This document shows positions 30,468-51,882 of a DNA stretch of 64,000 nucleotides, in pieces. The notes beneath the pieces are model-generated. The model was not told where the DNA came from, made no database searches, and saw only the letters and a list, made by a program, of their open reading frames with translations. The position numbers and the translations under genes are program-made. Source of the stretch: Parcubacteria bacterium C7867-005 (GTDB taxonomy: Bacteria > Patescibacteriota > Minisyncoccia > Phycocordibacterales > Zambryskibacteraceae); assembly GCA_001189165.1 (NCBI GenBank), contig LFCO01000003.1, forward strand, positions 50,769 to 114,768. Reading direction: 5' to 3'. How positions within the stretch are numbered: position 1 is the stretch's first letter; each line of letters begins with the position of its first letter.

Positions 30468-31697
30468 TTATTTTATAGCTTCTTTTAGGTCTTCTATTTT
30501 TACTCTTTTTTGTTCTCCAGTATCTCGATCACGAACAGTCACTGTATCCAAAAGTTCTGGATTCTCGCCGAGAGTGTCGAAGTCGATAGTGATGCAGTAC
30601 GGAGTGCCTATCTCATCTTGTCTTCTATACCTCTTACCAATGTTGCCGTTGTCGTCCCAAGCAATCCACTGGTTAAATTCTTTCTGTAACTTTGCCCTTA
30701 TCTCCTTTGCTTTCTTTACCAACTCTGGTTTGTTTTTCAGGAGCGGAAAGACCGCGGCCTTAAGCGGTGCGATTTCCTTAGGTAATTTCAGATACATCCT
30801 CGATTCTCCACCAAGATCATCTTCTCTGTACGCAGACAGCAGTATCGCGAGGATCGTCCTGTCTACCCCCAGAGATGGCTCGATCACATGAGGGACAAAT
30901 CTCTCCCCAGTTTCTTCATCAAAATACGAGAGGTCTACTGTGCTCGAAGCAGAATGAGCAGAGAGGTCAAAGTCTGTTCTGTATGCGAGGCCCCAAAGCT
31001 CCTTACGGCCAAACGGATAATCGAACTCGAAGTCAATCGTACGTTTACTATAGTGGGCACGGTCACCATCCCCCACTTCTAATTCATACACCTCTTCTAT
31101 GCCGACTGCCTTTGCAAAATCTTTCATCTTATTTCTCCATTCTTCAAAAGATTTCTCCCAATCCTTCTCCCTTATAAAATATTCTACTTCCATCTGCTCG
31201 AACTCTCTTTGTCTAAATATAAAATCTCTTGGAGATATTTCATTCCTAAATGCTTTACCGATCTGGGCAATGCCGAAAGGAAGTTTTGGATGATGGGAAT
31301 CAATAATATTCTTGAAATTCACAAATATACCCTGAGCTGTCTCTGGTCGTAAATAACTAGTTACAGCTGATTCACCGGCACCTACTGATGTCTGGAACAT
31401 CACATTAAACTTCTCACCACTTTCTAGTGGGTCTGCAAATCCAGCCACATGACCGCTCGCTTCCCATACTTTGGGGTTCATGATGATCGCCGCATCAAGG
31501 CCATACATGTCATCTCTCTCATCCCTGAACATTTGGAGCCAGACTTTTTTCAAATTCTCTTTCAACAGAACTCCCATAGGACCATAGTCAAAGCTTCCTG
31601 CAAGGCCACCATACACAAGAGACCCTGGGTATATAAACCCTCTACCCTTGGCAAGAGATATCACTTTTTCCATCAATTCTGGGTTTTTGTCTTTCAT
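30468..31697 (-). CDS. glyQS: Glycyl-tRNA synthetase (dimeric alpha2 type)
   Basis: 409 aa; class II motifs, conserved N-terminal LAKGRGFIYPGSLVYGGLAGSFDYGPMG. Confidence 0.9.
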   Translation of the reverse strand: MKDKNPELMEKVISLAKGRGFIYPGSLVYGGLAGSFDYGPMGVLLKENLKKVWLQMFRDERDDMYGLDAAIIMNPKVWEASGHVAGFADPLESGEKFNVMFQTSVGAGESAVTSYLRPETAQGIFVNFKNIIDSHHPKLPFGIAQIGKAFRNEISPRDFIFRQREFEQMEVEYFIREKDWEKSFEEWRNKMKDFAKAVGIEEVYELEVGDGDRAHYSKRTIDFEFDYPFGRKELWGLAYRTDFDLSAHSASSTVDLSYFDEETGERFVPHVIEPSLGVDRTILAILLSAYREDDLGGESRMYLKLPKEIAPLKAAVFPLLKNKPELVKKAKEIRAKLQKEFNQWIAWDDNGNIGKRYRRQDEIGTPYCITIDFDTLGENPELLDTVTVRDRDTGEQKRVKIEDLKEAIK

Positions 31698-31723: not shown

Positions 31724-33643
31724 TCATTTAACAACCAGCTCGTCTCCTTGGACAAATGTCGGATCAGAGTTGATTCGTGTAGTGACTGAAGGAGCGTTCA
31801 CACTCATGCTCTCTGAGGTAAAGGCGTCTGTCCCAGAAAAAGAAATCCCCTGCACCAGGATTGGTGTCGTACCAATCTGACCGATGGATGGAGTCAGAGA
31901 GATTTTAAAAGAAATCTCTCTACCTGGAGCAGAAAACCCTGTGCCAGACAAAAGAGTAGTCGCCTGCCAAGTCACTATCCTGGTTGTCTCATCAAAAGTA
32001 ATGGTTTCTGTCTCTGGACTTGTTTCTCCGAGCCACTTCACATTTGAGCCAAGGGTCGCCACTACCTTCGGATTATAAACATCATTCCTTGTGTTACCGA
32101 GATTCATCGTGATGGTATAAGTCGTCTCTGCCTCTGCCTTTGGTGGAACAGGGCCAGTGTTTTGAAATGGCCCACGAGAGTATACAGCCTTAGCAGACAG
32201 AGCTACCTCTGAGGCAATCTTCACTGAATTGTTTTTGGTGGCTACCAGGTTTAGTGATGTGTCTCTGCTCTGCGGTTCTGCACTAAAATTACTGGTGAGG
32301 GTGATTTCAGAGTTTTTCTGGCTTCCGGAAGCTGATGGTAAAGAAGCAAAACTGAACAAAACTTCCCCCTCATCGCCCGGGCCAATAGTAGAAAGTTTAC
32401 TATTACTTGTCTTGTCCCAAGTTATTGTGTTGTCTACAGAATTATAGAACCCTCCGTTTTGAGCCTTCACAGAAAATTTGTCCAGAATATTACCAGCGAG
32501 TTTGACTTGAACTTTGGCATTCTGAATATTCGACGGTAGATTGTTTTTGTAAGACACGCTAGCTTGGATACTCTTGCCACCTGGAGCAACGTACGGATTC
32601 GAAGTATCTCCATTCAACCTCACAGAGAGACCCACTGACGATCGGTTTATAGAAACAGTTTCGGATAAAGCAGTTATGGGTGTGGTGAACTTTTCTGGAT
32701 TATCACTACTGCCAAGACCTGTATAAAACCTGAAAGTTCTTTCTTCTTCATTCTCTCCAGAGATAACGCCCTTGATCATCACTGTTCTTTTGTCTCCTGG
32801 GGCCAAGTCGCCCAGTGACCAGACATTGTTTGAGAGAACTGCTTTGGGCACAGACTCTACAACAGAATAACCGTATGGATATTCGCCCCTAACCAAAATA
32901 CCTTTGAGTATCTCGTTTGAATTAGATACAACAGAGATTGTGGTGGTGAAAACTTCTCCAGATGCTACCGAGGGACTCCTTTCTATGGTCATGGTCACCG
33001 GCGCTGAATTTATATTTACTTCATAAACCTTTTCTTTGGTAAAAGTTGCATTCGATCCTTTTACTTTATAGCTCAAAGATATGCGGATCTCTTTGACGTC
33101 TCCTTTTTGCCCGAACAGTATGGCCTTCTCATTTATAACTATCTCTCTTCCAGAAGATATCTCCTCTAATGGAAGTCTCTTGTCTTCCTGATTAATGTTT
33201 GAATCTTCTGCTGATCTACTACCCTCTGGATAATCTATAAACATGTTCACAGATGTAAGATCCGCGTTGTTTTTGTTCAAAATTGTTACCCCTAATTCTA
33301 TTGGGTCGCCTGCAGAAACAGACACTGGTCCAAGGATACTGATCTCCACATTTTTTGAAGAAACCAAATTACCTCCACCAAAATATACAAAAGCGGCCAG
33401 GCCTGTGGCTATCACAAAAAATATAACAGCAAAAATAAAGAATTTTCTCATAATGGGGTGGCCTTCTGTGTCTTTTTTTTGATGAAGGAGCATCTCATCG
33501 AGTTCCCTACCTTGCCAGTCTGGGGGGATATCGGTCGGTTCGTCTGGATTCATGTGCACTCGTGAATCACTCGGATCTTTGTATCTAGTGCGCGAGTAAA
33601 GAGATTCGTCGAGCGCACCAACCTTGCTCTTCTCTTCTTTCAT
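31724..33643 (-). CDS. Hypothetical membrane-anchored surface protein
   Basis: 639 aa; cytoplasmic N-terminus, one TM (FFIFAVIFFVIATGLAAFVYF), large Ser/Thr/Asn-rich extracellular region with repeated beta-rich segments. Confidence 0.5.
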   Translation of the reverse strand: MKEEKSKVGALDESLYSRTRYKDPSDSRVHMNPDEPTDIPPDWQGRELDEMLLHQKKDTEGHPIMRKFFIFAVIFFVIATGLAAFVYFGGGNLVSSKNVEISILGPVSVSAGDPIELGVTILNKNNADLTSVNMFIDYPEGSRSAEDSNINQEDKRLPLEEISSGREIVINEKAILFGQKGDVKEIRISLSYKVKGSNATFTKEKVYEVNINSAPVTMTIERSPSVASGEVFTTTISVVSNSNEILKGILVRGEYPYGYSVVESVPKAVLSNNVWSLGDLAPGDKRTVMIKGVISGENEEERTFRFYTGLGSSDNPEKFTTPITALSETVSINRSSVGLSVRLNGDTSNPYVAPGGKSIQASVSYKNNLPSNIQNAKVQVKLAGNILDKFSVKAQNGGFYNSVDNTITWDKTSNSKLSTIGPGDEGEVLFSFASLPSASGSQKNSEITLTSNFSAEPQSRDTSLNLVATKNNSVKIASEVALSAKAVYSRGPFQNTGPVPPKAEAETTYTITMNLGNTRNDVYNPKVVATLGSNVKWLGETSPETETITFDETTRIVTWQATTLLSGTGFSAPGREISFKISLTPSIGQIGTTPILVQGISFSGTDAFTSESMSVNAPSVTTRINSDPTFVQGDELVVK

Positions 33644-33659: not shown

Positions 33660-34253
33660 TTATACCAATCCGGTTGTCCTAATGCCCTGGTTAATAACTT
33701 CTATTATTTTCTTTTTATTTTTAATCACAATATCAGATAATTCTTTGTTGAATTCTCCTCTAATAACTTCTTTGGGAACATCTCGCTCTGCCAAATAACC
33801 CAAGTGGTACAAGATTCTCGACACTAGAACAATCTCTATGGCCAGGGCCGTATCTGAATCCTCGGTCAGGTTCGCTGAGGTTATAAAAATATCTTCTATG
33901 GCATCAAAGAGTTCTTTGTGCTTTTCTTCTCCTTGAACGAGTTTCTCGAGCAAGAAAAGTGCCTGAAACAAAGACTTGGCCAAATCTTTGTTGGTCTTCT
34001 GAAGTGGAGAGATGCTCTTTAGTAAAAATGAGCTGGTAACTCTCCAATTAGATTTTCCTTTGATCAAGGAGATACTAGAAAGTGAGAGCGGTTCAAGCCC
34101 AGCCCTTAGCTTCGAGTTTTCCTTGCGTGTACCAGATGCCCTGGCGAATATGACGCCCAAATCCCTAGACAAAATGGTGTACAAGCCATCAGCTTCCCTG
34201 ATTGGCAAAAGTGAGAGAACGATGCCCTTGGTCGTATAGATGTTATATGACAT
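33660..34253 (-). CDS. recO: DNA repair protein RecO (short form)
   Basis: 197 aa; N-terminal OB-fold pattern GIVLSLLPIREADGLYTILSRDLGVIFARASGTRK. Confidence 0.6.
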   Translation of the reverse strand: MSYNIYTTKGIVLSLLPIREADGLYTILSRDLGVIFARASGTRKENSKLRAGLEPLSLSSISLIKGKSNWRVTSSFLLKSISPLQKTNKDLAKSLFQALFLLEKLVQGEEKHKELFDAIEDIFITSANLTEDSDTALAIEIVLVSRILYHLGYLAERDVPKEVIRGEFNKELSDIVIKNKKKIIEVINQGIRTTGLV

Positions 34254-37200
34254 TAAGAAACTATCTCTATATTGGTGAGTCCCCTAATCTCTTTTTCAAA
34301 TTTATCAAAAACGTCTTCTTCACCTGACTGTATTTGATAATCCATCTTGTCGCTTGGTTTTAGATTTCTTTCTTTTCTCAAATCTTGGATAGTTCTGACC
34401 ACATCACGCATTCTGCCTTCGAGTATGAGCTCTGGAGTAAGCTCTGTATCGAGTTCAACTCCATCTATATCCTTATTAGAGACGGATTTTACATTAACCT
34501 CTTCTTGGACTATGTCCCCGTAGGCCCCCCCTAATCTGACAAACAAAGAAGAGAGTGGTTGCCTGACCTTGATATTAGCCTTGGACCTGGCCTCTAATGC
34601 TTGGGTGACGATCTTCCTGGTCTCTTGCATATTATCCAAAACCTTAGGGTCGATCTCTCCTGCTTCTGGCCACTTATCCAGATGCACGCTCTCTGGGTCG
34701 GCTTCTAAACGCAACTTCTGATACAGATCTTCTGCAAAAAATGGAGCGAAAGGAGCAAGAAGTTTGGAAATTGTTTTCAAAACAAAATATAGATTTTGCT
34801 TGGATTCTTTATCTCCTTCTTTTAACCTATCCCTCGACCTACGCAAATACCAAGTAGACAAGTCGTCCACAAAATCCCTGAGTGCCCTGGTTGGTTCAAG
34901 TAACTTATAGGCGTCGAGCTTGCCTGTCATATCTCCTACGAGCTGATTCAGTCTGGAGAGAATCCATGTGTCGAGGGGATTATCGTTTAAAGCCGGAGCA
35001 TTCTTCTCTTCTCCTCTGTCTCTATAAAGTTCATAAAAGGTATGAATATTATCAAGAAGATTAAAAATCCTTTTAGAAACTTCATCTACAGAACGCTCAT
35101 CGAATCTCTTGGACTCCCCAGGTTGGTTCACTGAGTACATCCACATGCGCAAAGTATCAACACCATATTTATCCATCATCTCCCAAGGATCAACCACATT
35201 GCCTATCGACTTGGACATTTTCTTGCCATCTTTATCCAGAATATGTCCGAGGCAAATAACATTTTTATATGCGAGTCCCCTGTCCATGAGTACACCGATA
35301 GCATGTAGAGTGTAAAACCAACCCCTTGTTTGATCTATCGCTTCAGAAATAAAATCTGCTGGATACAGGACGTCCTTAAAATCTCCAGGGTTAACTCTGT
35401 CTAAGGCGTCTTGAGCAAATGGCACAGCCCCAGAATCGAACCATACGTCCATCACCTCTTTTACTCTCCTCATCTCTTTGCCCTCATCGCTTATCAAAAT
35501 GCATTCATCTATATAAGGTTTGTGTAGATCAACCGCAAAATTCTTGTCATGTGGCATCGGGGCAAAAGGTAAATTCCTAACCTCTGCGTTACTGAAGCGC
35601 ACAAAGTCGCTCACATAAGCGTGTGTGTTGGGCATCTTGTATTCTTTATTTTCAGGAAGATAGAGCCCGGATGTAACGTATAGAAGCCAGGCTGGACCAC
35701 CATGTGTAACGATAAGAATATTTTTATCCTTATATTTTTCTTCTATCTCATATATGAATTCACCCATCCTCCTGCGTACATCCGAGAGTGATTCTCCGCC
35801 AGGCATAGTCTGAGTGAACCAGTCACGGCCCGAAGAATACATCACCTGATGATATTCATTCCAATCTTTACCATCAAACTCGCCTGGGTCTATTTCTTGG
35901 ATTCTCTTATCTAGGACAATATTCTCTTTCGAATAACCCAGAACATCTGCGACAATGTTAGCTGTCTCCTGCGTACGAGTGAACGGCGAAGAGATAATGA
36001 GATCTATCTTCTCGGTCTTCAGTCTATTAGCAGAATCAAGTGCTTGGGCCTTACCCTCTTCGGTCAGGTGGTCATCAGCTTGTTTCTTAAAACTGACCAC
36101 CTCTTTCTTATTTCCTTCTGTACCACCGTGCCTCATCACCAAATACTTGTTCCCTGATTTTTTGATCCTCTGCCTCAATGTTTCTATAGAATCCACGACA
36201 AATCTCTCTTTCCCATCTTCTGTCTGCCAGATAGGAAGTGGTGTACCCCAATACCTCTCTCTAGAAATCGCCCAATCTTTGACTTCTCTGAGCCATTCAC
36301 CAAATCGTCCGTCTTTGGTGTGTTCGGGTTCCCAATTTATCTTTTGGTTTTCACTCACAAGCTTATCTCTAAGCTCGGACATGCGGATGTACCAAGAGTC
36401 TCTGGCGTAGTAAATCAATCTGGTTTTACATCTCCAACAAAACGGATACGAGTGTGTGTAGTTTTCTTTCTTGAAAAGTAGATTTCTGTTTTGTAAATCT
36501 TTTAAAATATCTACAGAGATATTCTCATCTACAACTGATTTACCCTCTAACCAATCAGTTCCTTTTACAAAAGTTCCATCAGGTGTAACCAGATGTTCTT
36601 TGGGTAAACCGACCTTGGTGCCCAGGTCAAAGTCTTCTTGTCCATACATGACTGCGGTATGCACGATACCTGTACCATCTTCTGTGGTGACAAAATCTGC
36701 GGTATAAACTTTGTGGACCTTGTCTGACTTATCTTTGAGGAATGGGTACGGAGGCTCATAACCCATACCAACCATTTCTTTTCCTTTGTGTTCTGCGATT
36801 ATTTCATATGGTCCATCTATTATGGACAGTCTCTCTTTGGCCAAGACGAGAATCTCCTCACCGACTTTCACCTCCACATAAATTATGTCTTCACCGACGG
36901 CAAGTGCGAGATTCCCCGGCAGGGTCCAGGGGGTGGTAGTCCAAGCCAAGAAATAAGCGTTTGGAAAACCGATAATTTTAAATTTGGCATAAATAGAAAG
37001 ATCTTTGACATCCTTATACCCCTGTGCGAGTTCATGAGAAGACAGCGCAGTACCACAACGAGGACACCACGGGACTACTTTGTAATCTTTATATAAAAGC
37101 CCTTTCTTTTCTACATGAGAGAGTATGGACCAGATCGATTCAATAAATGGGTTATGAAAAGTAAAATATGCATGACTTTGATCAGCCCAGTAACCAATAC

Positions 37201-37609
37201 GATCGGTAAACCTCCCCCATTCATCTATATACCTCAGGACGCTCTTCTTACATTCAGCATTAAATTTATCTATACCAAAGTTTTCTATTTCTTTTTTAGA
37301 TTTTAAACCCAAATTTTTCTCCGCTTCTATCTCCACAGGAAGACCGTGTGTATCCCAGCCCGCTTTTCTGCGAACATGAAAACCCTGCATTGTCTTGTAT
37401 CTGGGTATCGCATCTTTGAATGAACGGGCCTCTACGTGGTGTATAGCTGGGAGACCGTTCGCTGTTGGCGGTCCCTCATAAAATACAAAGTCACCCTTTG
37501 GAGATTCTTTCTCCAGGGTTTTCTCAAAAATCTTGTTCTTTTTCCAAAATTCAAGGACTTTTTCCTCTCGTTCTGCTCTTTGGGATTTGGGCCCTTTATC
37601 TTCAGGCAT
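34253..37609 (-). CDS. ileS: Isoleucyl-tRNA synthetase with an inserted histidine-phosphatase-like domain
   Basis: 1118 aa; class I catalytic core, CP1 editing domain, KMSKS (KMSKSIGNVVDP), WCPRCGT zinc motif. Between PLPIW (aa about 460) and DVWFDSG (aa about 721) there are about 260 aa instead of the usual about 65, containing RHGGTE ... IVTHGGP (histidine phosphatase RHG/His motifs). Confidence 0.9.
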   Translation of the reverse strand: MPEDKGPKSQRAEREEKVLEFWKKNKIFEKTLEKESPKGDFVFYEGPPTANGLPAIHHVEARSFKDAIPRYKTMQGFHVRRKAGWDTHGLPVEIEAEKNLGLKSKKEIENFGIDKFNAECKKSVLRYIDEWGRFTDRIGYWADQSHAYFTFHNPFIESIWSILSHVEKKGLLYKDYKVVPWCPRCGTALSSHELAQGYKDVKDLSIYAKFKIIGFPNAYFLAWTTTPWTLPGNLALAVGEDIIYVEVKVGEEILVLAKERLSIIDGPYEIIAEHKGKEMVGMGYEPPYPFLKDKSDKVHKVYTADFVTTEDGTGIVHTAVMYGQEDFDLGTKVGLPKEHLVTPDGTFVKGTDWLEGKSVVDENISVDILKDLQNRNLLFKKENYTHSYPFCWRCKTRLIYYARDSWYIRMSELRDKLVSENQKINWEPEHTKDGRFGEWLREVKDWAISRERYWGTPLPIWQTEDGKERFVVDSIETLRQRIKKSGNKYLVMRHGGTEGNKKEVVSFKKQADDHLTEEGKAQALDSANRLKTEKIDLIISSPFTRTQETANIVADVLGYSKENIVLDKRIQEIDPGEFDGKDWNEYHQVMYSSGRDWFTQTMPGGESLSDVRRRMGEFIYEIEEKYKDKNILIVTHGGPAWLLYVTSGLYLPENKEYKMPNTHAYVSDFVRFSNAEVRNLPFAPMPHDKNFAVDLHKPYIDECILISDEGKEMRRVKEVMDVWFDSGAVPFAQDALDRVNPGDFKDVLYPADFISEAIDQTRGWFYTLHAIGVLMDRGLAYKNVICLGHILDKDGKKMSKSIGNVVDPWEMMDKYGVDTLRMWMYSVNQPGESKRFDERSVDEVSKRIFNLLDNIHTFYELYRDRGEEKNAPALNDNPLDTWILSRLNQLVGDMTGKLDAYKLLEPTRALRDFVDDLSTWYLRRSRDRLKEGDKESKQNLYFVLKTISKLLAPFAPFFAEDLYQKLRLEADPESVHLDKWPEAGEIDPKVLDNMQETRKIVTQALEARSKANIKVRQPLSSLFVRLGGAYGDIVQEEVNVKSVSNKDIDGVELDTELTPELILEGRMRDVVRTIQDLRKERNLKPSDKMDYQIQSGEEDVFDKFEKEIRGLTNIEIVS

Positions 37610-37680: not shown

Positions 37681-38250
37681 TCACCCATTCTGGGTCATCG
37701 AAATCCATCTCCGGTGACCGCCGAGCACCTGAGCCACGACATGTTTCTTGTCGTGCTTGGACGTGTCGATGACGAGGTCGAAAGCATCCTGCTCCCAGAT
37801 CGAACCGGGATACAAATCTCGATACCTCAACTCATCGTCATCATCCCGTTTCAGGATGGCGGCGAGGACCTCGTCGAGAGACTTGCCGGGGTAATCAAGT
37901 ATCCGTCTCGTCGCCCGAACACCCGGAGGGCACACCAGGAGGATCTTGAAGGCATGTGGCATGAAGAAATGCGGCAGACGCCCATCGCAGACCACGTAGT
38001 CGTGCTCTGCGAATTTCTGGATCATCATGTCGCACACCAGGTCATGCCCATCTTCTGGGTGCTTACGGTTATGCTCTGCGAAAGCCTCGATGCTCGGAAA
38101 GCCGAGCTCTTCGGCCTTGGCCCGCATGATCGAACCACCACTGACGAAACGATATGGGAGCCTCACGAACCGCTCCCTCAGGGCGGAGACGAGGGAGGTC
38201 GATCCTACTCCAGACTGGCCGGTGATGGAGAACTGATTCAGGTGGCGCAA
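37681..38250 (-). CDS. P-loop nucleoside monophosphate kinase, cytidylate-kinase-2-like; GC-rich
   Basis: 189 aa; P-loop ITGQSGVGSTSL, family-2 cytidylate kinase-like layout; about 57% GC versus about 40% background. Confidence 0.45.
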   Translation of the reverse strand: MRHLNQFSITGQSGVGSTSLVSALRERFVRLPYRFVSGGSIMRAKAEELGFPSIEAFAEHNRKHPEDGHDLVCDMMIQKFAEHDYVVCDGRLPHFFMPHAFKILLVCPPGVRATRRILDYPGKSLDEVLAAILKRDDDDELRYRDLYPGSIWEQDAFDLVIDTSKHDKKHVVAQVLGGHRRWISMTQNG

Positions 38251-38320: not shown

Positions 38321-40105
38321 CTACATCCTTTCAGGAGTTGGGATACCGAGTATGGTCAGACCATTCTTCATCACTGTATTAAATGCTTTGGTGACAGCGA
38401 TGAGGTATGCGGATTCTGGTTTATCAGAAAGGATCTGTTCTCTGGCATACAGGCTGTTGAAACTCCCTGCAAGTTGAGTCAGATAAGTGGTGATGTGGCT
38501 CGGTGCGAATTCATCCATCGCATTCTCTACTACTTCTGGAAATCTGTAGAGAAGTTTCTCTATCTCATAGTTTTCTTCTATCTTGATATTTGTATCGGCG
38601 GATTTATCTGCTTTTTCCAATATGGAGTTAGTTCGTGCATAAGCATATTGGAGATAGACACCAGAATCTCCTTCGGTAGAAACAGATTTTTCCAAATCAA
38701 AAATAATATCATTCCCTATCGACTGCCTGAGGATCATATATTTGATCGCTCCTATGGCCACCTCCTCTTGGGCGATGTCTCCTTTATCTGAGATAATTTT
38801 CTTAACATCTTCAATCAAATCTTCTGCGGTGATAATCGTCCCAGTTCTAGACGACATCTTTCCGGAGGGTAGCTTTAGGACACCATGAGATAAGTGCCTC
38901 AGCTTGCCATTTAATTCTGGGAAGATTTGGCTAATCGCCACTTCCACAACATTGAAGAAAGCATCCTGCTCATTCGCAGTTATGGTTATGGATTCGTCGT
39001 ATACAAATTTATTCTTTTTAATTTTAGCCAAACCGACTTCCTTAGCCTCATACGTTGGCAACTTTTCTGAGTTTAAAAAGACTCTAGTATGTAGACCGAA
39101 TTTTTCACCTTTAAAAATGATTGCTCCCTCGCTTTCTTCAAAGACCTCGCCCGCGTTTTCTAAAACTAATTTCTTTCCTATTTCCCCAGCTTCGCTCTCA
39201 TAAAAGTGGCCAGCAAATTCGCTACCTAGCCTTTTGTACATAAGCTCAAAATCATCTAGAGAATTTTGTCTGCCGGATTCATACAGAGCGTTAACCTTGC
39301 TATCTGATTTATCATAAATCTTTTTGTTGATCTCTATTATTTCTTTTTTAGCATTTTCATCATCTTCATAAGATTTGTGTCCGAAAGCATAAGCTCCAGT
39401 AAAGTCACCTGATTGTTTTAGTGCCCCCCATATAGCCTTGGCGACATGGAGTCCGACATCGCCGTGATAGGTAACGGTTTTTACATTTGCCCCATTTGCC
39501 TTGATCATCCCAGCCACAGATTCGCCGATGATATTGTTCATCATGTGACCAATATGAAATTCTTTGAATGGGTTTGGCTGTGTATGTTCAACCAAGAACT
39601 TTTTATCTTCCAGATTAGAATTTTGACCAAAATTATCTCCGGCATCAATGATCTGTTTGAGTGAGTTTAAAAAGAATTTTTTGGAGAGATAGAAATTGAT
39701 AAACCCAGGGCCGGCGATTTCTACCCTCTCTATGTCATCTGTCTTGTTTTTATCCAAATATTCAAATATCTCTTGTGCACGGGTACGACGCTTGATCCCC
39801 ACATTTGTAGAATAATCCCCCATTTTTAGGTCCGCGGGGTGCTCCACCACAAAGTCCGTATCCTGTATATCGAGCCCCCTTAAGGCCTCTTTTATCAGTA
39901 TTTCTATAGTATTTTTCACCTCCTCATGATACCCGAAAGGAGGGTGGATAGAAATATGTAAAGAAACCTGCTCGTTAGAGCAGGTTGTACAGCTAAGCCA
40001 GGAGCTTGTCGAGAGTCGTTCGGAAATCCTCCCAGACTTCTTCAATATCACGACTCGCGTCGATCTGGATGACTCGGGCGAATTCAGAGAACTCACCGTA
40101 GCCAC
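38321..40105 (-). CDS. argS: Arginyl-tRNA synthetase (annotated ORF is 5'-extended; true start probably near 39950)
   Basis: ArgRS N-terminal add-1-like domain, catalytic core, DALR anticodon-binding C-terminus. The first about 50 codons of the track ORF overlap tmk and its terminator hairpin and are probably not translated. Confidence 0.8.
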   Translation of the reverse strand: MATVSSLNSPESSRSTRVVILKKSGRISERLSTSSWLSCTTCSNEQVSLHISIHPPFGYHEEVKNTIEILIKEALRGLDIQDTDFVVEHPADLKMGDYSTNVGIKRRTRAQEIFEYLDKNKTDDIERVEIAGPGFINFYLSKKFFLNSLKQIIDAGDNFGQNSNLEDKKFLVEHTQPNPFKEFHIGHMMNNIIGESVAGMIKANGANVKTVTYHGDVGLHVAKAIWGALKQSGDFTGAYAFGHKSYEDDENAKKEIIEINKKIYDKSDSKVNALYESGRQNSLDDFELMYKRLGSEFAGHFYESEAGEIGKKLVLENAGEVFEESEGAIIFKGEKFGLHTRVFLNSEKLPTYEAKEVGLAKIKKNKFVYDESITITANEQDAFFNVVEVAISQIFPELNGKLRHLSHGVLKLPSGKMSSRTGTIITAEDLIEDVKKIISDKGDIAQEEVAIGAIKYMILRQSIGNDIIFDLEKSVSTEGDSGVYLQYAYARTNSILEKADKSADTNIKIEENYEIEKLLYRFPEVVENAMDEFAPSHITTYLTQLAGSFNSLYAREQILSDKPESAYLIAVTKAFNTVMKNGLTILGIPTPERM

Positions 40106-40613
40106 GACGCACCCTCTTGTGGAACTCGAGGTCCTTATCGTCGAAGGAGTTCGTATCCGTCGACCGACGCTTCCTCCCCAGACCGATCTCCGGATCTATA
40201 TCCAGATAGACGTATATCGGGGCGACGACACCACTCATCATCTCCTCTCTCACCACTCGGAAAAGCGAGATGAGGCCGTGATGCTCTTCGCCCCAGATCT
40301 GGTAAGCGAAGGTTGAAGCATCAAAACGATCCGAGACAACATTCGCACCACGGAGAAGCGCGGGCATGATCTTCGTTTTGAGGTGATCGGCTCTCGCGGC
40401 CCAGAAGAGATGGAACTGTGCCTCTGCTGATAGATCCTTTCCTCTCTCCGAGAACAAGAGGCCCCTAATCTCCTCGGCGATCGGGGTACCACCTGGCTCT
40501 CTGGTAACAACCAGTTCAGCCCCCCCGCCGGCGTACTTTTCGTAACGCTTGAGGTGGGTGCTTTTGCCTGAACCCTCTCCGCCTTCGACCACCACAAATG
40601 ATCCACGTCGCAT
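39993..40613 (-). CDS. tmk: Thymidylate kinase
   Basis: 206 aa; P-loop VVVEGGEGSGKST, TREPGGT motif, LID region; GC-rich. Confidence 0.85.
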   Translation of the reverse strand: MRRGSFVVVEGGEGSGKSTHLKRYEKYAGGGAELVVTREPGGTPIAEEIRGLLFSERGKDLSAEAQFHLFWAARADHLKTKIMPALLRGANVVSDRFDASTFAYQIWGEEHHGLISLFRVVREEMMSGVVAPIYVYLDIDPEIGLGRKRRSTDTNSFDDKDLEFHKRVRRGYGEFSEFARVIQIDASRDIEEVWEDFRTTLDKLLA

Positions 40614-40703: not shown

Positions 40704-41579
40704 ATGTTTAGTATGGGCACCGGAAGCAACGCCCTTTACCACCTCAGCAGGAGTATCAAGATGCCGAATGTGCCCATCAGGATCTTCAACATCGCGAGTA
40801 CCCAGGTGGATCGCGAGGAAGTTCGCAAGTGGCTCGATTTCATCGGGGCAGAAGGATACGAGATCCCCGAAGATGGTGCGGTCACCAACCCCGCATTGCT
40901 CATCGCTCTCGCTGGTCGTCGATGCTACAAGAGCTTCGTGCCGGGTCTCAACCCGAACGTCACGAAGATCCGCAAGGACATGGCGGACTACATCGACAAC
41001 ATCCTCGCGTCGGGCCATGGCTCAGTGCTCGAACACTCGGTCTACACCTTCGCGATCGAGAACGTGAGCCGAGTCTTCACCGGGGAGATGAATCGTCACC
41101 GTGCTGGATGGGCCATCTCGGAAGGTAGCATGCGCTACATCCGATTCACCGACATCGATTGGTGGATGCCGACTTCTCTCCAGGATTCCCCAGATGATTC
41201 GGTGGAGCTTCGGCTTCGCAAGCAACAGAGTCGAGACATCTTCACGGCGGCGTTCAAGATGCAAAGCCAGGCCTACTCGAGCTTGCTCGAGGTCTGGGAC
41301 ATCCCCGAAGGCCATCATGATTTCCACTACAAGAAGGTCGTGACTTCCTGCCTGCGTCGCATCGTCGGCATGGGTGTCGCCACAGGAGGAATCTGGACCG
41401 GCAACATCCGAGCCATCCGCCACGTCATCACCATGAGGGCTGATTCGGCGGCCGAGGAGGAGATCTTCTATGTCTTCTCAAACATCCTCAAGATGATGGC
41501 GGAGAAGGAGCCCATGCTCTTCGGTGACTTCAAGCAGAACGAGAGTGGCTCTTGGGTGCCTGAATACAGGAAGGTGTGA
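40704..41579 (+). CDS. thyX: Flavin-dependent thymidylate synthase ThyX
   Basis: 291 aa; ThyX signature RHRxxxxxxSxRY (NRHRAGWAISEGSMRYI); GC-rich. Confidence 0.85.
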   Translation: MFSMGTGSNALYHLSRSIKMPNVPIRIFNIASTQVDREEVRKWLDFIGAEGYEIPEDGAVTNPALLIALAGRRCYKSFVPGLNPNVTKIRKDMADYIDNILASGHGSVLEHSVYTFAIENVSRVFTGEMNRHRAGWAISEGSMRYIRFTDIDWWMPTSLQDSPDDSVELRLRKQQSRDIFTAAFKMQSQAYSSLLEVWDIPEGHHDFHYKKVVTSCLRRIVGMGVATGGIWTGNIRAIRHVITMRADSAAEEEIFYVFSNILKMMAEKEPMLFGDFKQNESGSWVPEYRKV

Positions 41580-41644: not shown

Positions 41645-42316
41645 ATGGCCCTATCAGACAAACGTATTTTGGAAGAAATCAAAAAAGGAGACATAGTCGT
41701 CGAGCCCTTTCGCAAGGAAAACCTGGCTACGTCAAGCTACGATGTGACCCTGGGAGAATTTTATTTTAGGGAACAAAGACCGAAGCATCTTTATAATATT
41801 TACAATATCTACGACAAACGACACACCGATCATGTGTGGGGTACTGTGGCGCATAAAGCTGAAACAGCGAGAGAAGTTTTCCAAGATGTGAAGTTCGACT
41901 ACATAGGCATAAAACCAAACGACAAGATTATCTTGCTTGAACCTGGAGAAACAATCCTCGCACATACTAATGAATTCATCGGCGGCAAACACCACATCAC
42001 CACCATGATGAAAGCGAGGTCTTCTTTGGGTAGAAATTTTATCGAGGTGTGCAAATGTGCTGGTTGGGGTGACGTTGGTTTTACAAACAGATGGACCATG
42101 GAGATCACCAACAACTCTTCACACTACTCTATTCCCCTCGTGGTTGGCAGACGCATCGCCCAGATTATATTCTTTGAGACCGGAGAGATACTTAAGAGTG
42201 ATTATACAAAACTTGGTAAATACCAAACTACGAACGACATTAAACAAATGAAAAGGGACTGGAAGCCTGACAGTATGCTCCCAAGACTTTACACGGACAG
42301 AGATATAAAGAAATAA
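41645..42316 (+). CDS. dcd: dCTP deaminase (dUTPase superfamily)
   Basis: 223 aa; N-terminal ILSDKRILEEI...PF...SYDVTLG and trimeric dUTPase-fold motifs; AT-rich like host. Confidence 0.8.
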   Translation: MALSDKRILEEIKKGDIVVEPFRKENLATSSYDVTLGEFYFREQRPKHLYNIYNIYDKRHTDHVWGTVAHKAETAREVFQDVKFDYIGIKPNDKIILLEPGETILAHTNEFIGGKHHITTMMKARSSLGRNFIEVCKCAGWGDVGFTNRWTMEITNNSSHYSIPLVVGRRIAQIIFFETGEILKSDYTKLGKYQTTNDIKQMKRDWKPDSMLPRLYTDRDIKK

Positions 42317-46609: not shown

Positions 46610-46684
46610 GGGTGCCCACCGGGAATCGAACCCGAATTGCAAGTTCCACAAACTTGAGTGTTAACCGTTACACCATGGGCACCA
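46610..46684 (-). tRNA. tRNA-His (anticodon GTG)
   Basis: Cloverleaf readable in reverse complement: extra 5' G(-1), D-arm gtgtaacggttaacac, anticodon loop ttGTGga, T-arm ggttcgattcc. Confidence 0.8.
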
Positions 46685-46698
46685 TTATTCGCACAAAA

Positions 46699-47250
46699 CT
46701 AATTATAGCTCGGAGCGGTCTCCTTTATACCAGATTTATGGTTCGAGAGTCGAGCCAGCGCATAAAGGATGCTCGACAATCTGTTCATAAAACTCAAAGT
46801 CTCTTTTTTGGGTAAAACTATTTTTTCTTCACTGACTCCCACAACTCTCCTCTCTGCTCTACGGGCGATTGTTCGAGCTACATCAAAACATGCTCCCAAC
46901 TCTGAGCCACCAGAAATAAAGAATGTTTTTATTGGTGGCATCTCCCCTTCTGCTTGGTTGATGAGGTTCTCTACCAAAGTAACCTTATCAGGAGTTATAA
47001 ACTTATCTGCACCAGCTATTTCAGCTTGAACAGTGAAGAGATTTTCTTGAAGCATGTGAACTATCTCTTCAAAAGTTTTATCTCCGAGAGTAAAACCAGA
47101 TTCTTTTGATTTAACCTTGCAGATACCCAAGTAGGAATTTATTTCGTCCAAAGATCCGAGTGCTTCGGCGATAGATGAACTCTTAGAAACCCTTTGGTCA
47201 CAGCCAAAGGTCTTTGTAGTACCATCATCACCTTTTCTTGTGTACAACAT
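46699..47250 (-). CDS. ATP:cob(I)alamin adenosyltransferase, PduO/MMAB type
   Basis: 183 aa; N-terminal MLYTRKGDDGTT...DEINSYLG typical of Cob_adeno_trans family. Confidence 0.75.
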   Translation of the reverse strand: MLYTRKGDDGTTKTFGCDQRVSKSSSIAEALGSLDEINSYLGICKVKSKESGFTLGDKTFEEIVHMLQENLFTVQAEIAGADKFITPDKVTLVENLINQAEGEMPPIKTFFISGGSELGACFDVARTIARRAERRVVGVSEEKIVLPKKETLSFMNRLSSILYALARLSNHKSGIKETAPSYN

Positions 47251-47334
47251 GGTGCTCGGGAGAGGATTTGAACCTCCATGCCTCTCGGCGCTACCACCTC
47301 AAGGTAGTGCGTCTACCAATTTCGCCACCCGAGC
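47251..47334 (-). tRNA. tRNA-Leu (anticodon GAG), type II with long variable arm
   Basis: Reverse complement gctcgggtggcgaaattggtagacgcactaccttGAGgtggtag...ggttcaaatcc...cccgagcacca; encoded CCA abuts the start codon of the upstream gene. Confidence 0.8.
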
Positions 47335-47360
47335 ATGGGCAAACAGTAACAGGAAACAGA

Positions 47361-47747
47361 TTACGCTTCAACCGGAGTTTCTTCTGCTGTATCCTTGGCC
47401 ATACGAACATTTCGCATCTGCCTTCTGATATCCTTGGCTGCCTTGTCTCTGATGTGGTATAGCTTGGCGCGACGAACCTTAGAACGTTTAATGACTTCTA
47501 TCTTGTCTATCGCTGGAGAATAAAGGAGGAAAGTTTTTTCTACCCCTACACCAGATGCGACTCGACGAACAGTGAAAGTGGCACCAGCTTCGCGCCCGTG
47601 CTTGCGAGCTAGTACCAAGCCCTCAAATGCCTGGAGACGAGTCTTGCCCTTCTCTTGGATTTTCTGCCAAACACGAATAGTGTCTCCAGAACGGAGATCG
47701 AGCTTGCTCCTCTCTTCTACTTTTATTGGTGAATGCACTGTGGTCAT
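47361..47747 (-). CDS. rplS: 50S ribosomal protein L19
   Basis: 128 aa; conserved GDTIRVW...GKTR...FEG and RRAKLYHIR motifs. Confidence 0.9.
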
Positions 47748-47777
47748 AAGTCAGAGTAATCTAACATAAGGAATACC

Positions 47778-48521
47778 CTATGGCAAATCTTTGGGAACAT
47801 AGTTTATAGCCTCAAAAGCCTTCAAGAAGTCCTCCGGATAATCTGCTTTTATTGATTTGACCATGCCCTGAAAATCCTTGAATTCAACCTTTCGGGCATG
47901 GAGAGCAAGACGATTAAACCCCAAGAGGGCTGGTTTTGATGCTCCGTAAAGTTTGTCGCAGACAACCGGTCTCTGAAGCGATTGAAAATGAACACGAATC
48001 TGATGAGTACGTCCTGTCTTTGGTTTGGCCTCCACAAGGGTCACATCCTTGTCTCGCTTTAGAACCTGATAATAAGTTACCGCCTCTCTCATCTCCCCCG
48101 TTGCACCACGGCCAGCTGAATATTTACGGAAATCTGTTGGACTCTTGCCGATAGATGTATTCAGGGTTCCATGATCATCCTTTAGAGAACCGTGCACAAA
48201 AGCAATATATGTTTTACTGATAATACGTTTTAAAAATTGATTCTTTAGATGCTCAAAACCTTTTTGGGTCTTGGCCAGTAAAAGTACTCCGGAAGTATCC
48301 CTGTCCAAGCGGTGGACTACCCCGCTTCTGTCTATTATCTCTCCGCCCTCGAGTCTGATCATCTCTCCTACCCCTCGAGCTTCTGGGTACTTAGAACAAA
48401 ACCATTCTGAGACGCTTGATTCTTTGGTTCGCCCATCTCCATGAACAACAATCCCTGACGGTTTGTCCAAGGCCAAGATGTCTTCGTCTTCAAAGATAAT
48501 GCGGTCTGATAAATCAAACAT
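47778..48521 (-). CDS. RluA-family pseudouridine synthase (start trimmed to Met downstream of tRNA-Val)
   Basis: Catalytic motif HRLDRDTSGVLLLAK. The track ORF (to 48581) overlaps tRNA-Val, so the start is more likely the internal Met (MFDLSDRI) at about 48521. Confidence 0.8.
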   Translation of the reverse strand: MFDLSDRIIFEDEDILALDKPSGIVVHGDGRTKESSVSEWFCSKYPEARGVGEMIRLEGGEIIDRSGVVHRLDRDTSGVLLLAKTQKGFEHLKNQFLKRIISKTYIAFVHGSLKDDHGTLNTSIGKSPTDFRKYSAGRGATGEMREAVTYYQVLKRDKDVTLVEAKPKTGRTHQIRVHFQSLQRPVVCDKLYGASKPALLGFNRLALHARKVEFKDFQGMVKSIKADYPEDFLKAFEAINYVPKDLP

Positions 48522-48523
48522 TG

Positions 48524-48596
48524 TGGGCGATACAGGACTCGAACCTGTGACCTTCTCAGTGTAAATGAGTTGCTCTACCAACTGAGCTAATCGCCC
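48524..48596 (-). tRNA. tRNA-Val (anticodon TAC)
   Basis: Reverse complement gggcgattagctcagttggtagagca-actca-ttTACac-tgaga-...ggttcgagtcc...atcgccca. Confidence 0.75.
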
Positions 48597-48656
48597 TAGA
48601 TATGCTCGGGAAACCCCGATGGAAGGATACTAACATATAATGTATTGTCTTTAAAT

Positions 48657-48741
48657 GAGCATGTGGCGGAACTGGTATACGCGTACGATTCAGAATCGTA
48701 TGCCGCAAGGCTTGAGGGTTCAAATCCCTCCATGCTCACCA
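48657..48741 (+). tRNA. tRNA-Leu (anticodon CAG), type II
   Basis: gagcatgtggcggaactggtatacgcg-tacga-ttCAGaa-tcgta-long variable arm-gggttcaaatccctc-catgctcacca. Confidence 0.8.
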
Positions 48742-48747
48742 AACAAA

Positions 48748-48782
48748 AAACACCCGATCAAAGACAAAGGGTGTTTTTTGTT
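48748..48782. terminator. Bidirectional rho-independent terminator
   Basis: acacccgatcaaagacaaagggtgt hairpin flanked by A-run and T-run; sits between tRNA-Leu (+) and the convergent ORF 48799-49176 (-). Confidence 0.6.
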
Positions 48783-48798
48783 TGTAGAAACAGATAGA

Positions 48799-49176: not shown

Positions 49177-49275
49177 AAAATAATTAAACTCGTTAATACT
49201 AATTTTCCGACCCTTACATTATACAACCAGAAAATACCGCAAATAGATTATCCGCAGAAATTGTTGATAAGCGAT

Positions 49276-49350: not shown

Positions 49351-49371
49351 GCAAGGAAGATAGTACCCGCA

Positions 49372-50266: not shown

Positions 50267-50270
50267 AAAA

Positions 50271-51861: not shown

Positions 51862-51882
51862 TCACTCTGAGCATAGCGTAGA

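What the first reader, a model, noticed from the sequence alone, without database searches (positions are those of the whole stretch)
35540..36214. Isoleucyl-tRNA synthetase carries an inserted, apparently complete histidine-phosphatase domain
Between the conserved PLPIW element (aa about 460) and the DVWFDSG element (aa about 721) this IleRS has about 260 residues where typical enzymes have about 65. The extra segment contains the catalytic RHG motif (RHGGTE), a downstream acid/substrate region (ISSPFTRTQETA) and the second catalytic His (IVTHGGPAWLL). That is the full signature of the phosphoglycerate-mutase/histidine-phosphatase superfamily. The insertion is in-frame and leaves HIGH-like, editing and KMSKS elements intact, so it reads as a true domain fusion, not an intein or assembly chimera.
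Basis: partly seen in the sequence, partly recalled or inferred. Interest (0 to 1): 0.6.

Follow-up and report, generated by a model that had tools for sequence, protein, structure and literature searches.

The report
Phosphatase domain built into isoleucyl-tRNA synthetase
The isoleucyl-tRNA synthetase of this Parcubacteria genome carries a complete, apparently active histidine-phosphatase domain spliced into its catalytic core, and in related bacteria the same phosphatase is a separate gene lying just in front of the synthetase gene, so the two seem to work together, though on what is unknown.

Summary
ORF 34253..37609 (-) is a 1118-aa type-2 IleRS (TIGR00392, 876 bits). About 205 extra residues (aa 481-688, nt 35546..36169) match Pfam His_Phos_1 at E=2.4e-37.

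The insert sits in the loop of the CP2 zinc knuckle. It folds as an independent histidine-phosphatase domain in the AF2 models (pLDDT about 89-97). The catalytic set R493-H494, N500, R545, E572 and H636 is present, and each position holds the same or an equivalent residue (N/Q, E/D) in all 87 inserted IleRS examined.

It is not a chimera. All 120 best homologs carry the domain, and so do 103 species-representative genomes, all from Parcubacteria-group lineages, almost always as one ORF of at least 1029 aa.

The new point is the gene context. The closest free-standing relatives (41% identity) lie directly between argS and an insert-less ileS, in the same argS-[HP]-ileS-recO cluster, in 54 of 80 metagenome loci. 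Fused loci have no free-standing copy nearby. The same phosphatase is also found fused to the ArgRS C-terminus and to TsaC/Sua5, and some IleRS carry 2-4 copies.

No paper describing this was found. The substrate is unknown. The best reading is an active phosphomonoesterase functionally coupled to adenylate-forming tRNA enzymes.

The parts
34253..37609 (-). ileS: 1118-aa type-2 isoleucyl-tRNA synthetase carrying the insert (stop codon included)
   Evidence: ORF list. TIGR00392 ileS 876.2 bits against a cut-off of 621.4. PDB IleRS2 8c8w E=1.7e-233. 100% identical to the NCBI protein 'isoleucyl-tRNA synthetase [Parcubacteria bacterium C7867-005]'.
36170..37609 (-). IleRS aa 1-480: first half of the Rossmann/HUP catalytic domain, CP1 with the editing domain, and the start of CP2 up to the first arm of the former zinc knuckle
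   Evidence: Aligns to 8c8w residues 9-476. The editing domain matches 1wk8 over aa 197-389 at E=1.7e-34.
37436..37447 (-). Signature motif A55-I-H-H58, the non-canonical G/AXHH form of HIGH
   Evidence: Translation. The motif class and its link to mupirocin hyper-resistance are described in PMC10485003.
35546..36169 (-). Inserted module, aa 481-688 (about 205 residues net): histidine-phosphatase domain plus its C-terminal beta-strand and linker (NAEVRxLPFxPxPH)
   Evidence: Gap in the alignment to 8c8w. Insert-less relatives have 3-24 residues here. AF2 pLDDT is 89-97 across the module in the full-length model, and the stand-alone model has pLDDT 88.9 and pTM 0.89.
35609..36142 (-). Pfam His_Phos_1 (PF00300) match, aa 490-667
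   Evidence: E=2.4e-37, 128.9 bits. Foldseek top hits are 4ij5/4ij6 (iPSP1), GpgP, a riboflavin-pathway histidine-family phosphatase, CobC and PhoE, all with probability 1.00.
36125..36133 (-). R493-H494-G495: the RHG motif with the phospho-accepting histidine
   Evidence: Translation. R493 and H494 are invariant in 63 orthologs and present in all 87 inserted IleRS.
36110..36112 (-). N500, the Asn of the RHGxxxxN motif
   Evidence: Translation. At least 90% conserved. N or Q in all 87 inserted copies.
35975..35977 (-). R545, the second catalytic Arg (SPFxRTxxT motif)
   Evidence: Invariant.
35894..35896 (-). E572, the predicted proton donor (RxxExxxGxxxGK)
   Evidence: Invariant in 63 orthologs. 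E or D in all 87 inserted copies.
35702..35704 (-). H636, the second catalytic His (VTHGG)
   Evidence: Invariant.
34256..35545 (-). IleRS aa 689-1118: second arm of the former zinc knuckle, second Rossmann half (DVWFDSG), KMSKS, anticodon-binding domain and C-terminal DUF5915 domains
   Evidence: Aligns to 8c8w residues 482-851. Pfam Anticodon_1 at aa 880-1020 and DUF5915 at aa 1035-1109.
35207..35221 (-). KMSKS motif (aa 797-801)
   Evidence: Translation. The K-M-S-K residues are invariant in orthologs.
38321..40105 (-). argS (ArgRS), the upstream member of the conserved argS-[HP]-ileS-recO cluster. The true start is probably near aa 60 of the listed ORF.
   Evidence: Pfam Arg_tRNA_synt_N, tRNA-synt_1d and DALR_1. 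Synteny with L082 and L085 and with 58 of 81 fused loci.
37681..38250 (-). Cytidylate-kinase-like gene in the argS-ileS slot, where relatives have the free-standing phosphatase. It is GC-rich (0.57).
   Evidence: Pfam Cytidylate_kin2 E=3.2e-10. GC 0.572 and GC3 0.711.
33660..34253 (-). recO, the downstream member of the conserved cluster
   Evidence: Pfam RecO_N. recO lies downstream of ileS in 66 of 81 fused loci.

Best explanation
Shown: this is a working-type IleRS (type 2, non-canonical AIHH motif) with a complete branch-1 histidine-phosphatase (HP) domain inserted into the loop of its CP2 zinc knuckle. The architecture is ancient and conserved in Parcubacteria-group lineages (records labelled Zambryskibacteria, Nomurabacteria, Minisyncoccia and others). 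The insert is the fused counterpart of a free-standing, roughly 200-aa HP gene that in other lineages lies directly between argS and ileS, and that can instead be fused to the C-terminus of ArgRS or to TsaC/Sua5. Inferred: the HP module is catalytically active, forming a phospho-His494 intermediate with R493, R545 and H636 holding the phosphate and E572 acting as the acid. It folds autonomously and is tethered by short linkers to the periphery of the catalytic core, so IleRS still charges tRNA-Ile. Most likely working model (weakest step): it is a phosphomonoesterase whose job is tied to adenylate-forming, tRNA-directed enzymes. It would act on a nucleotide-like phosphomonoester or on a product or by-product of the aminoacylation reaction; candidates include AMP and related 5'-phospho-ribosyl compounds, and PPi. 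Physical tethering would give a 1:1 ratio and proximity to the synthetase. In this lineage the zinc-binding cysteines that flank the site were lost after the insertion, so the HP domain has probably taken over the structural role of the knuckle.
For: The domain identity, the fold and the intact catalytic residues are supported, nearly all of 217 domain copies keep R-H...R...E/D...H. The IleRS is intact. The architecture is conserved: all 120 best homologs have PF00300, 103 GTDB species representatives matched, and 64 of 66 complete ORFs are at least 1029 aa. Of the best 150 cluster representatives for the insert out of 1.84 billion proteins, 101 are embedded in IleRS. Base composition of the insert equals the rest of the gene: GC 0.436 against 0.419 and 0.418. 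Gene-context link: P0030 and P0034 (41% identical, free-standing) lie 4-14 bp upstream of an insert-less ileS and downstream of argS. In 80 metagenome loci, 54 have a stand-alone HP directly upstream of ileS, 7 have it just after argS, and 10 have it inserted. In 78 fused loci there is exactly one HP copy inside ileS and none free within 4 kb either side, with argS upstream in 58 and recO downstream in 66. Alternative fusions: ArgRS-HP (P0367 in L171, and L150) and TsaC/Sua5-HP (P0279). One free-standing copy lies in the ribosomal-protein operon between map and infA. Some IleRS carry 2-4 copies that are mostly catalytically intact. Zinc-knuckle cysteines: all 37 insert-less IleRS keep them, while 67 of 87 inserted ones, including this one, have lost them all. 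The nearest solved relatives include nucleotide-like 5'-phosphate phosphatases (CobC and the riboflavin-pathway histidine-family phosphatase 9mmh) as well as phosphoserine phosphatase and PhoE.
Against: There is no biochemical evidence, and no curated phosphatase subfamily model reaches its cut-off: CobC 95 against 163, PspA 79 against 350, dPGM_arch 71 against 225 (for the free-standing forms). The substrate is therefore open. CPR genomes are compact and strongly syntenic, so adjacency of housekeeping genes alone is weak evidence of functional coupling. Histidine phosphatases are not known pyrophosphatases. More distant free-standing relatives (P0087, P0099) are not linked to translation genes.
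Confidence: 0.55

Rival explanations
1. The HP domain is an ordinary metabolic enzyme unrelated to translation, for example the 'missing' phosphoglycerate mutase of some Parcubacteria, a metal-independent phosphoserine phosphatase, or a broad-specificity PhoE-type phosphatase. It became fused to neighbouring housekeeping genes in streamlined genomes only because this secures co-expression. IleRS is merely a carrier.
For: The closest solved structures are phosphoserine phosphatase iPSP1 and PhoE. The best NCBIfam hit of the free-standing forms is the archaeal-type dPGM. Jaffe et al. 2020 (PMC7304191) report PGM as apparently absent from several shallow Parcubacteria clades, possibly because the forms are too divergent to detect. 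The ArgRS C-terminal fusion can arise by simple loss of a stop codon between adjacent genes. More distant family members lie in non-translation contexts.
Against: Read-through cannot produce an insertion into the middle of ileS at one precise loop. The association holds in three different formats (gene neighbour, ArgRS fusion, IleRS insertion), plus a TsaC fusion and a ribosomal-protein-operon location. No dPGM, PspA or CobC model reaches its cut-off. The domain is the short PhoE-like form, about 165-200 aa, rather than the longer dPGM form.
Confidence: 0.25
2. The HP domain acts on a macromolecule handled by the synthetase. It could remove a 2'/3'-phosphate from damaged or toxin-modified tRNA 3' ends before charging. 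It could instead reverse an inhibitory phosphorylation of the synthetase itself, the kind of modification that HipA-type kinases place on other synthetases.
For: All fusion partners (IleRS, ArgRS, TsaC/Sua5) are tRNA-directed enzymes. The histidine-phosphatase superfamily includes protein phosphatases such as SixA, PGAM5 and Sts-1 (established knowledge). The free-standing forms give weak SixA hits of 28-37 bits against a cut-off of 74.5.
Against: No member of this superfamily is known to be an RNA-end phosphatase (own knowledge). There are no matches to defence-system models in PADLOC. A repair enzyme tethered to one synthetase would serve only one tRNA species. SixA-model scores are below the cut-off.
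Confidence: 0.12
3. The insert is mainly structural. It would replace the lost zinc knuckle of CP2 or mediate dimerisation, as many histidine phosphatases are dimers, and catalysis would be irrelevant.
For: The zinc-binding cysteines are lost in 67 of 87 inserted IleRS, including this one. Tandem or double copies in some IleRS could form pseudo-dimers.
Against: Every catalytic residue is kept at 33-75% domain identity, including both copies in nearly all multi-copy forms. Between 17 and 18 inserted IleRS still keep the full zinc knuckle. The free-standing homolog has no scaffold to replace.
Confidence: 0.05
4. The insert is an artefact or a selfish element: an assembly chimera, an intein, or a recent mobile insertion.
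For: None beyond the unusual length. One relative (P0334) does carry an IS200-like transposase domain in frame elsewhere in the protein.
Against: The architecture is identical in more than 100 independent assemblies. There is no Hint or endonuclease domain. There is no compositional break. The insertion site is conserved and the sequence is under purifying selection.
Confidence: 0.01

Closest known systems
Type-2 IleRS with the non-canonical G/AXHH signature motif (IleRS2; Brkic et al. 2023, PMC10485003; PDB 8c8u-8c9d)
   Same: Same overall enzyme: HUP catalytic domain, CP1 with editing domain, CP2, KMSKS and type-2 C-terminal domains. 781 bits to 8c8w. The motif A-I-H-H fits the described G/AXHH class.
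   Different: Described IleRS2 enzymes have an intact Cys4 zinc knuckle and about 5 residues where this protein has a 205-aa phosphatase domain. A 2026 survey that annotated the domain architectures of 96,219 IleRS sequences does not mention any phosphatase.
Small branch-1 histidine phosphatases: PhoE (1ebb/1h2e), metal-independent phosphoserine phosphatase iPSP1/PspA (4ij5), alpha-ribazole phosphatase CobC (6nru/6e4b), riboflavin-pathway histidine-family phosphatase (9mmh)
   Same: Same fold and the same catalytic RHG...R...E...H set. Profile E-values of 1e-21 to 1e-29 and Foldseek probability 1.00.
   Different: Only 22-28% identity. No curated subfamily cut-off is met. All of these are free-standing enzymes, none is embedded in another enzyme. 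The CPR subfamily has its own NxY signature before beta-1 and a C-terminal NAEVR/PLPH linker.
NCBIfam NF040702 'isoleucine--tRNA ligase, N-acetyltransferase domain-containing' (ileS_w_GNAT)
   Same: A precedent for an IleRS that carries an extra catalytic domain. One relative here (P0334) has both the phosphatase and a GNAT domain.
   Different: The extra domain is a GNAT rather than a histidine phosphatase. The query scores 303 bits against a cut-off of 1999. In P0334 the GNAT appears to sit at a second site, after DVWFDSG.
Bifunctional RNase H/acid phosphatase (Rv2228c type, NF005567)
   Same: A CobC/PhoE-like histidine phosphatase fused to a nucleic-acid enzyme. 92.5 bits over the phosphatase part.
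   Different: That is an end-to-end fusion to RNase HI, not an insertion into a synthetase, and the score is far below the cut-off of 326.

Membership tests
Isoleucyl-tRNA synthetase (TIGR00392 ileS) | Whole-protein score above the curated equivalog cut-off | tested here: met
   876.2 bits against a cut-off of 621.4, in two stretches interrupted by the insert.
Isoleucyl-tRNA synthetase (TIGR00392 ileS) | Class I signature motifs HIGH and KMSKS | tested here: met
   KMSKS at aa 797-801. The HIGH position reads AIHH, the documented G/AXHH variant of IleRS2.
Isoleucyl-tRNA synthetase (TIGR00392 ileS) | CP1 editing domain and anticodon-binding domain present | tested here: met
   aa 197-389 match the isolated editing domain 1wk8 at E=1.7e-34. 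Pfam Anticodon_1 at aa 880-1020.
Isoleucyl-tRNA synthetase (TIGR00392 ileS) | Charges tRNA-Ile with isoleucine | not testable with these tools
   Needs an aminoacylation assay.
Histidine phosphatase superfamily, branch 1 (Pfam PF00300) | Profile score above the gathering threshold | tested here: met
   128.9 bits against 21.7, covering profile positions 2-179 of 194.
Histidine phosphatase superfamily, branch 1 (Pfam PF00300) | Catalytic core: RHG nucleophile His, second Arg, acidic proton donor, second His | tested here: met
   R493, H494, R545, E572 and H636 are present and invariant in 63 orthologs. Each position holds the same or an equivalent residue in 87 of 87 inserted copies.
Histidine phosphatase superfamily, branch 1 (Pfam PF00300) | Alpha/beta phosphoglycerate-mutase-like fold | tested here: met
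   AF2 model with pLDDT 88.9 and pTM 0.89. Foldseek probability 1.00 and TM 0.65-0.73 to 4ij5, 6s2q, 9mmh and 1h2e.
Histidine phosphatase superfamily, branch 1 (Pfam PF00300) | Phosphatase or mutase activity through a phospho-histidine intermediate | not testable with these tools
   Needs enzyme assays with H494A as a control.
Cofactor-dependent phosphoglycerate mutase (GpmA, dPGM_arch, GpmB models) | Score above the curated equivalog cut-off | tested here: not met
   dPGM_arch 70.8 against 225, GpmB 58.1 against 261, PRK01295 42.9 against 316. The free-standing relatives score 64-94 against 225.
Phosphoserine phosphatase PspA (NF045917) and alpha-ribazole phosphatase CobC (TIGR03162) | Score above the curated equivalog cut-off | tested here: not met
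   PspA 78.9 against 350. CobC 95.1 against 162.9.
Intein | Hint splicing domain (with or without a homing endonuclease) bracketing the insert | tested here: not met
   No Hint, LAGLIDADG or HNH family among the Pfam hits. The insert is fully accounted for by His_Phos_1.
Mupirocin-resistance IleRS MupA/MupB (NF000257/NF000258) | Score above the 'exception' model cut-off | tested here: not met
   756 and 780 bits against a cut-off of 1900. This reflects general type-2 IleRS similarity only.
IleRS with GNAT domain (NF040702) | Score above the cut-off, and a GNAT domain present | tested here: not met
   302.9 bits against 1999. No acetyltransferase family was found in the query.

The most novel reading that the evidence does not exclude
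Parcubacteria-group bacteria possess a dedicated translation-coupled phosphatase that evolution has repeatedly wired into adenylate-forming tRNA enzymes: as an operon partner between argS and ileS, as an ArgRS C-terminal fusion, as a TsaC fusion, and as a CP2 insertion in IleRS, sometimes in 2-4 copies. It would act directly on a substrate, product or by-product of aminoacylation, or on the tRNA 3' end. Possible jobs are clearing AMP, PPi or a nucleotide by-product, or healing phosphorylated tRNA ends. That would make it a previously unrecognised type of accessory catalytic domain of aminoacyl-tRNA synthetases.
Probability: 0.3. Interest if true: 0.8.

Novelty: new variant of a known kind. Interest (0 to 1): 0.62.

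Why it matters
Aminoacyl-tRNA synthetases are among the most conserved enzymes, and their bacterial forms rarely carry unrelated catalytic domains. Here a second, apparently active enzyme sits inside the catalytic core of an essential synthetase across a large uncultivated lineage. The gene-neighbour, fusion and insertion series links the two proteins in the way Rosetta-stone arguments require.

If the phosphatase takes part in aminoacylation chemistry or tRNA-end maintenance, it reveals an accessory step of translation specific to these reduced, symbiotic bacteria. If instead it is the missing PGM or phosphoserine phosphatase, metabolic reconstructions of Parcubacteria need correcting, because domain-level searches hide it inside 'IleRS'. 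Some source annotations already name the free-standing phosphatase 'isoleucyl-tRNA synthetase'.

It also gives a natural example of a large domain tolerated in the CP2 zinc knuckle, followed by loss of the zinc ligands.

Tried and rejected
1. The apparent closest free-standing homolog, P0010 (57% identity), turned out to be one fragment of a frameshifted fused ileS (L001), so it was not used as evidence.

2. A genome scan with the divergent alignment A2 failed because it had no conserved 7-10 column stretch. It was repeated with the narrower alignment A3, so the count of 103 species is a lower bound tied to two narrow peptide patterns.

3. A neighbour-joining tree of 217 domain copies places the ileS-adjacent free-standing forms and the ArgRS- and TsaC-fused forms among the IleRS-inserted ones. 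It has no support values, so I do not use it to count insertion events.

4. Pairwise identities of IleRS cores grouped by HIGH type and cysteine status did not settle whether there was one insertion or several.

5. A fold search of the full-length model against AFDB50 was not possible because the library is unavailable.

6. Four literature searches for the fusion found nothing relevant. A fifth search on Patescibacteria synthetases, and reading two IleRS papers and one domain-insertion survey, also found no description of it.

7. PADLOC defence models gave no hit.

8. Cross-genome recurrence makes it unnecessary.

9. Whole-genome questions could not be asked because only the 64-kb window and locus flanks are available. 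These include the presence of ppa, gpm or serB, the HD domain of the CCA-adding enzyme, and a second ileS.
Full report
**1. The observation**

ORF 34253..37609 on the minus strand encodes a 1118-aa protein. It is an isoleucyl-tRNA synthetase: TIGR00392 scores 876 bits against a cut-off of 621, and PDB IleRS2 8c8w matches at E=1.7e-233. The 8c8w alignment covers query residues 10-480 and 689-1047, with only about five residues of the solved enzyme in between. About 205 residues are therefore extra.

Pfam assigns aa 490-667 (nt 35609..36142) to His_Phos_1 at E=2.4e-37. So are N500 and the proton donor E572. KMSKS (aa 797-801), the CP1 editing domain and the anticodon-binding domain are intact.

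**2. Not an artefact**

The protein is 100% identical to the deposited 'isoleucyl-tRNA synthetase [Parcubacteria bacterium C7867-005]'. All 120 best full-length homologs (60-75% identity, 1051-1192 aa) also carry PF00300.

A scan of one genome per GTDB species with two narrow peptide patterns found 103 relatives, and 80 loci were fetched. All the records carry Patescibacteria or Parcubacteria-group labels such as Zambryskibacteria, Nomurabacteria, Paceibacteria and Minisyncoccia. In 64 of 66 complete cases the phosphatase lies in a single ORF of at least 1029 aa.

In an exhaustive search of 1.84 billion cluster representatives with the insert alone, 101 of the best 150 hits are embedded in IleRS. 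The insert has the same base composition as the rest of the gene: GC 0.436 against 0.419 and 0.418. No intein-type domain is present.

**3. Anatomy**

The insertion point is the loop of the CP2 zinc knuckle. All 37 insert-less relatives have CxxC...CxC/CxxC on the two sides of the site, with 3-24 residues between them. P. megaterium IleRS2 shows the same pattern (WECEGC...TCPVCSG).

Of 87 inserted IleRS, 67 have lost all four cysteines. This protein is one of them, reading WQTEDGK...ILISDEGK. A further 17-18 still keep the cysteines, and the site is the same in every case.

AF2 predicts the full-length protein with pLDDT 87 and pTM 0.79, and pLDDT 89-97 across the insert. The insert alone gives pLDDT 88.9 and pTM 0.89. 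It has the phosphoglycerate-mutase-like fold. The nearest solved structures are iPSP1 phosphoserine phosphatase, GpgP, the riboflavin-pathway histidine-family phosphatase, CobC and PhoE.

R493, H494, R545, E572 and H636 are invariant in 63 orthologs. They are also conserved in distant fused forms at 33-43% domain identity. In all 87 inserted copies each position holds the same or an equivalent residue. Mean column identity of the insert is 0.61. That is lower than the catalytic core (0.76-0.81) and similar to the C-terminal domains (0.63), which indicates purifying selection on a peripheral module.

**4. Where the insert comes from, and what it is associated with**

The nearest real free-standing homologs, P0030 and P0034 (41% identity), lie 4-14 bp upstream of an insert-less ileS of 961-972 aa and directly downstream of argS, with recO further on. 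The window has the same order, with the phosphatase inside ileS: argS 38321..40105, ileS, recO 33660..34253.

I scanned metagenome contigs with an alignment of the free-standing forms and classified the 80 returned loci by tblastn:
- 54 have a stand-alone ORF of about 200 aa immediately upstream of ileS.
- 7 have it just after argS, with ileS further away or beyond the contig end.
- 10 have it inserted in ileS.
- 9 are other or too short to classify.

Conversely, 78 fused loci contain exactly one phosphatase copy, inside ileS, and none free within 4 kb either side. argS is upstream in 58 of them and recO downstream in 66. The two states are therefore complementary within one conserved cluster.

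Further formats exist:
- ArgRS with a C-terminal phosphatase: P0367 in L171, where ileS is absent from the cluster, and L150, where ileS follows.
- TsaC/Sua5 fused to the phosphatase: P0279.
- A free-standing copy in the ribosomal-protein operon between map and infA: P0036.
- IleRS with two to four copies, in tandem or at second sites after DVWFDSG or before the anticodon-binding domain. The catalytic sets are intact in nearly all copies; one copy in P0293 has substitutions at two non-core conserved positions.

The free-standing family includes records labelled Staskawiczbacteria, so both states occur within the Parcubacteria group.

**5. Mechanism**

Shown:
- An intact IleRS and an intact-looking histidine phosphatase share one polypeptide.
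- The architecture is conserved across the lineage.
- The phosphatase has a conserved genomic and physical association with class I synthetases and with TsaC.

Inferred from the family's established chemistry: His494 is transiently phosphorylated, R493, R545 and H636 bind the phosphoryl group, and E572 protonates the leaving group.

The substrate is not known. No curated subfamily model is met: CobC 95 against 163, PspA 79 against 350, dPGM_arch 71 against 225.

My preferred model (confidence about 0.55 for the whole statement; the architectural part is near certain) is an active phosphomonoesterase whose role is tied to adenylate-forming tRNA enzymes. It would act on a nucleotide-like phosphomonoester or on a reaction product. 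I prefer it for two reasons:
- The association takes four independent forms, which simple read-through fusion cannot explain.
- The structural neighbours include nucleotide-like 5'-phosphatases.

Rivals:
- An unrelated metabolic enzyme using IleRS as a carrier (0.25). This is notable because PGM is reported as apparently missing in some Parcubacteria clades (PMC7304191).
- A tRNA-end or protein phosphatase (0.12).
- A purely structural replacement of the zinc knuckle, or a dimerisation module (0.05).
- An artefact or mobile element (0.01).

**6. Comparison with what is known**

The host enzyme is a type-2 IleRS with the non-canonical G/AXHH motif (here AIHH). That motif was shown experimentally to confer mupirocin hyper-resistance in other IleRS2 enzymes (PMC10485003).

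The insert is a member of Pfam His_Phos_1 but of no characterised subfamily. NCBIfam already recognises an IleRS with a GNAT domain (NF040702). That is a precedent for catalytic add-ons in IleRS, but the query does not belong to that family.

I found no paper describing a phosphatase-bearing IleRS. Four searches for the fusion returned nothing relevant. A fifth search on Patescibacteria synthetases also found nothing on it. A 2026 survey that annotated the domain architectures of 96,219 IleRS sequences does not mention one, and neither does a 2026 survey of domain insertions.

The proteins are in public databases, annotated simply as IleRS or 'class I tRNA ligase family protein'.

**7. Verdict**

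This is a real, conserved and apparently undescribed domain insertion, with a clear evolutionary link to a neighbouring free-standing gene. I rate it a new variant of a known kind, namely a synthetase with an accessory catalytic domain. Interest is 0.62. The function is open but directly testable.

Noticed in passing
window 37436..37447 (-): The IleRS class I signature motif reads A-I-H-H instead of H-x-G-H. This is the non-canonical G/AXHH form that Brkic et al. 2023 linked experimentally to mupirocin hyper-resistance in IleRS2. Among the inserted IleRS surveyed, the motif varies (GIHH, ALHH, AIHH, GLHH, HYGH).
   Followed up: partly
window 36208..36231 and 35477..35500 (-), aa 460-467 and 704-711: The four zinc-binding cysteines of the CP2 knuckle that flank the insertion site are all replaced in this protein (WQTEDGK / ILISDEGK). 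All 37 insert-less relatives keep them, and so do 17-18 of the 87 inserted relatives.
   Followed up: yes
window 37681..38250 (-), 39993..40613 (-), 40704..41579 (+): Three nucleotide-metabolism genes (cytidylate-kinase-like, thymidylate kinase, ThyX) have GC 0.56-0.57 (GC3 up to 0.71) against 0.44 for the window, which suggests horizontal acquisition. The cytidylate-kinase-like gene occupies the argS-ileS slot where relatives have the free-standing phosphatase. A dCTP-deaminase-like gene follows at 41645..42316.
   Followed up: partly
window 38321..40105 (-): The listed ArgRS ORF starts at a GTG about 60 codons upstream of the first Pfam-matched residue and overlaps the thymidylate kinase gene (39993..40613). 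The real start is probably further downstream.
   Followed up: no
P0334, P0243, P0276, P0302, P0293, P0382 (relatives from the representative search): Some IleRS relatives are heavily decorated. They carry two to four histidine-phosphatase copies, in tandem or at second sites after DVWFDSG or before the anticodon-binding domain. One also has an in-frame IS200-like Y1 transposase domain in the editing region plus a GNAT domain.
   Followed up: partly
L171:6001-8070, L150, L170:977-2140: The same phosphatase subfamily is fused to the C-terminus of ArgRS. In L171, recO follows directly and ileS is absent from the cluster. It is also fused to a TsaC/Sua5 (t6A pathway) domain.
   Followed up: partly
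L001:219-3563: A fused ileS relative is called as four consecutive gene fragments, with the phosphatase as a separate 187-aa 'gene' (P0010). This is either a frameshifted assembly or a pseudogene, and it mimics a free-standing phosphatase in protein databases.
   Followed up: partly
P0391, P0456: JGI annotation names two free-standing phosphatases of about 200 aa 'isoleucyl-tRNA synthetase', apparently by transfer from the fused proteins. This is an annotation error that could spread.
   Followed up: no
window 5263..8458 (-) and 46610..61809: A 23S rRNA (5534..8458) and a 5S rRNA (5263..5369) are present, but no 16S rRNA was detected anywhere in the 64-kb window. Eight tRNA genes are scattered between 46.6 and 61.8 kb.
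   Followed up: no
window 30468..31697 (-) and 31724..33643 (-): Downstream of recO lie a DUF11-repeat protein and a 409-aa class II synthetase (tRNA-synt_2b plus HGTP_anticodon). L171 has a similar order, with a DUF7619 protein in the corresponding position, so the synteny of this translation-gene cluster extends beyond argS-ileS-recO.
   Followed up: no
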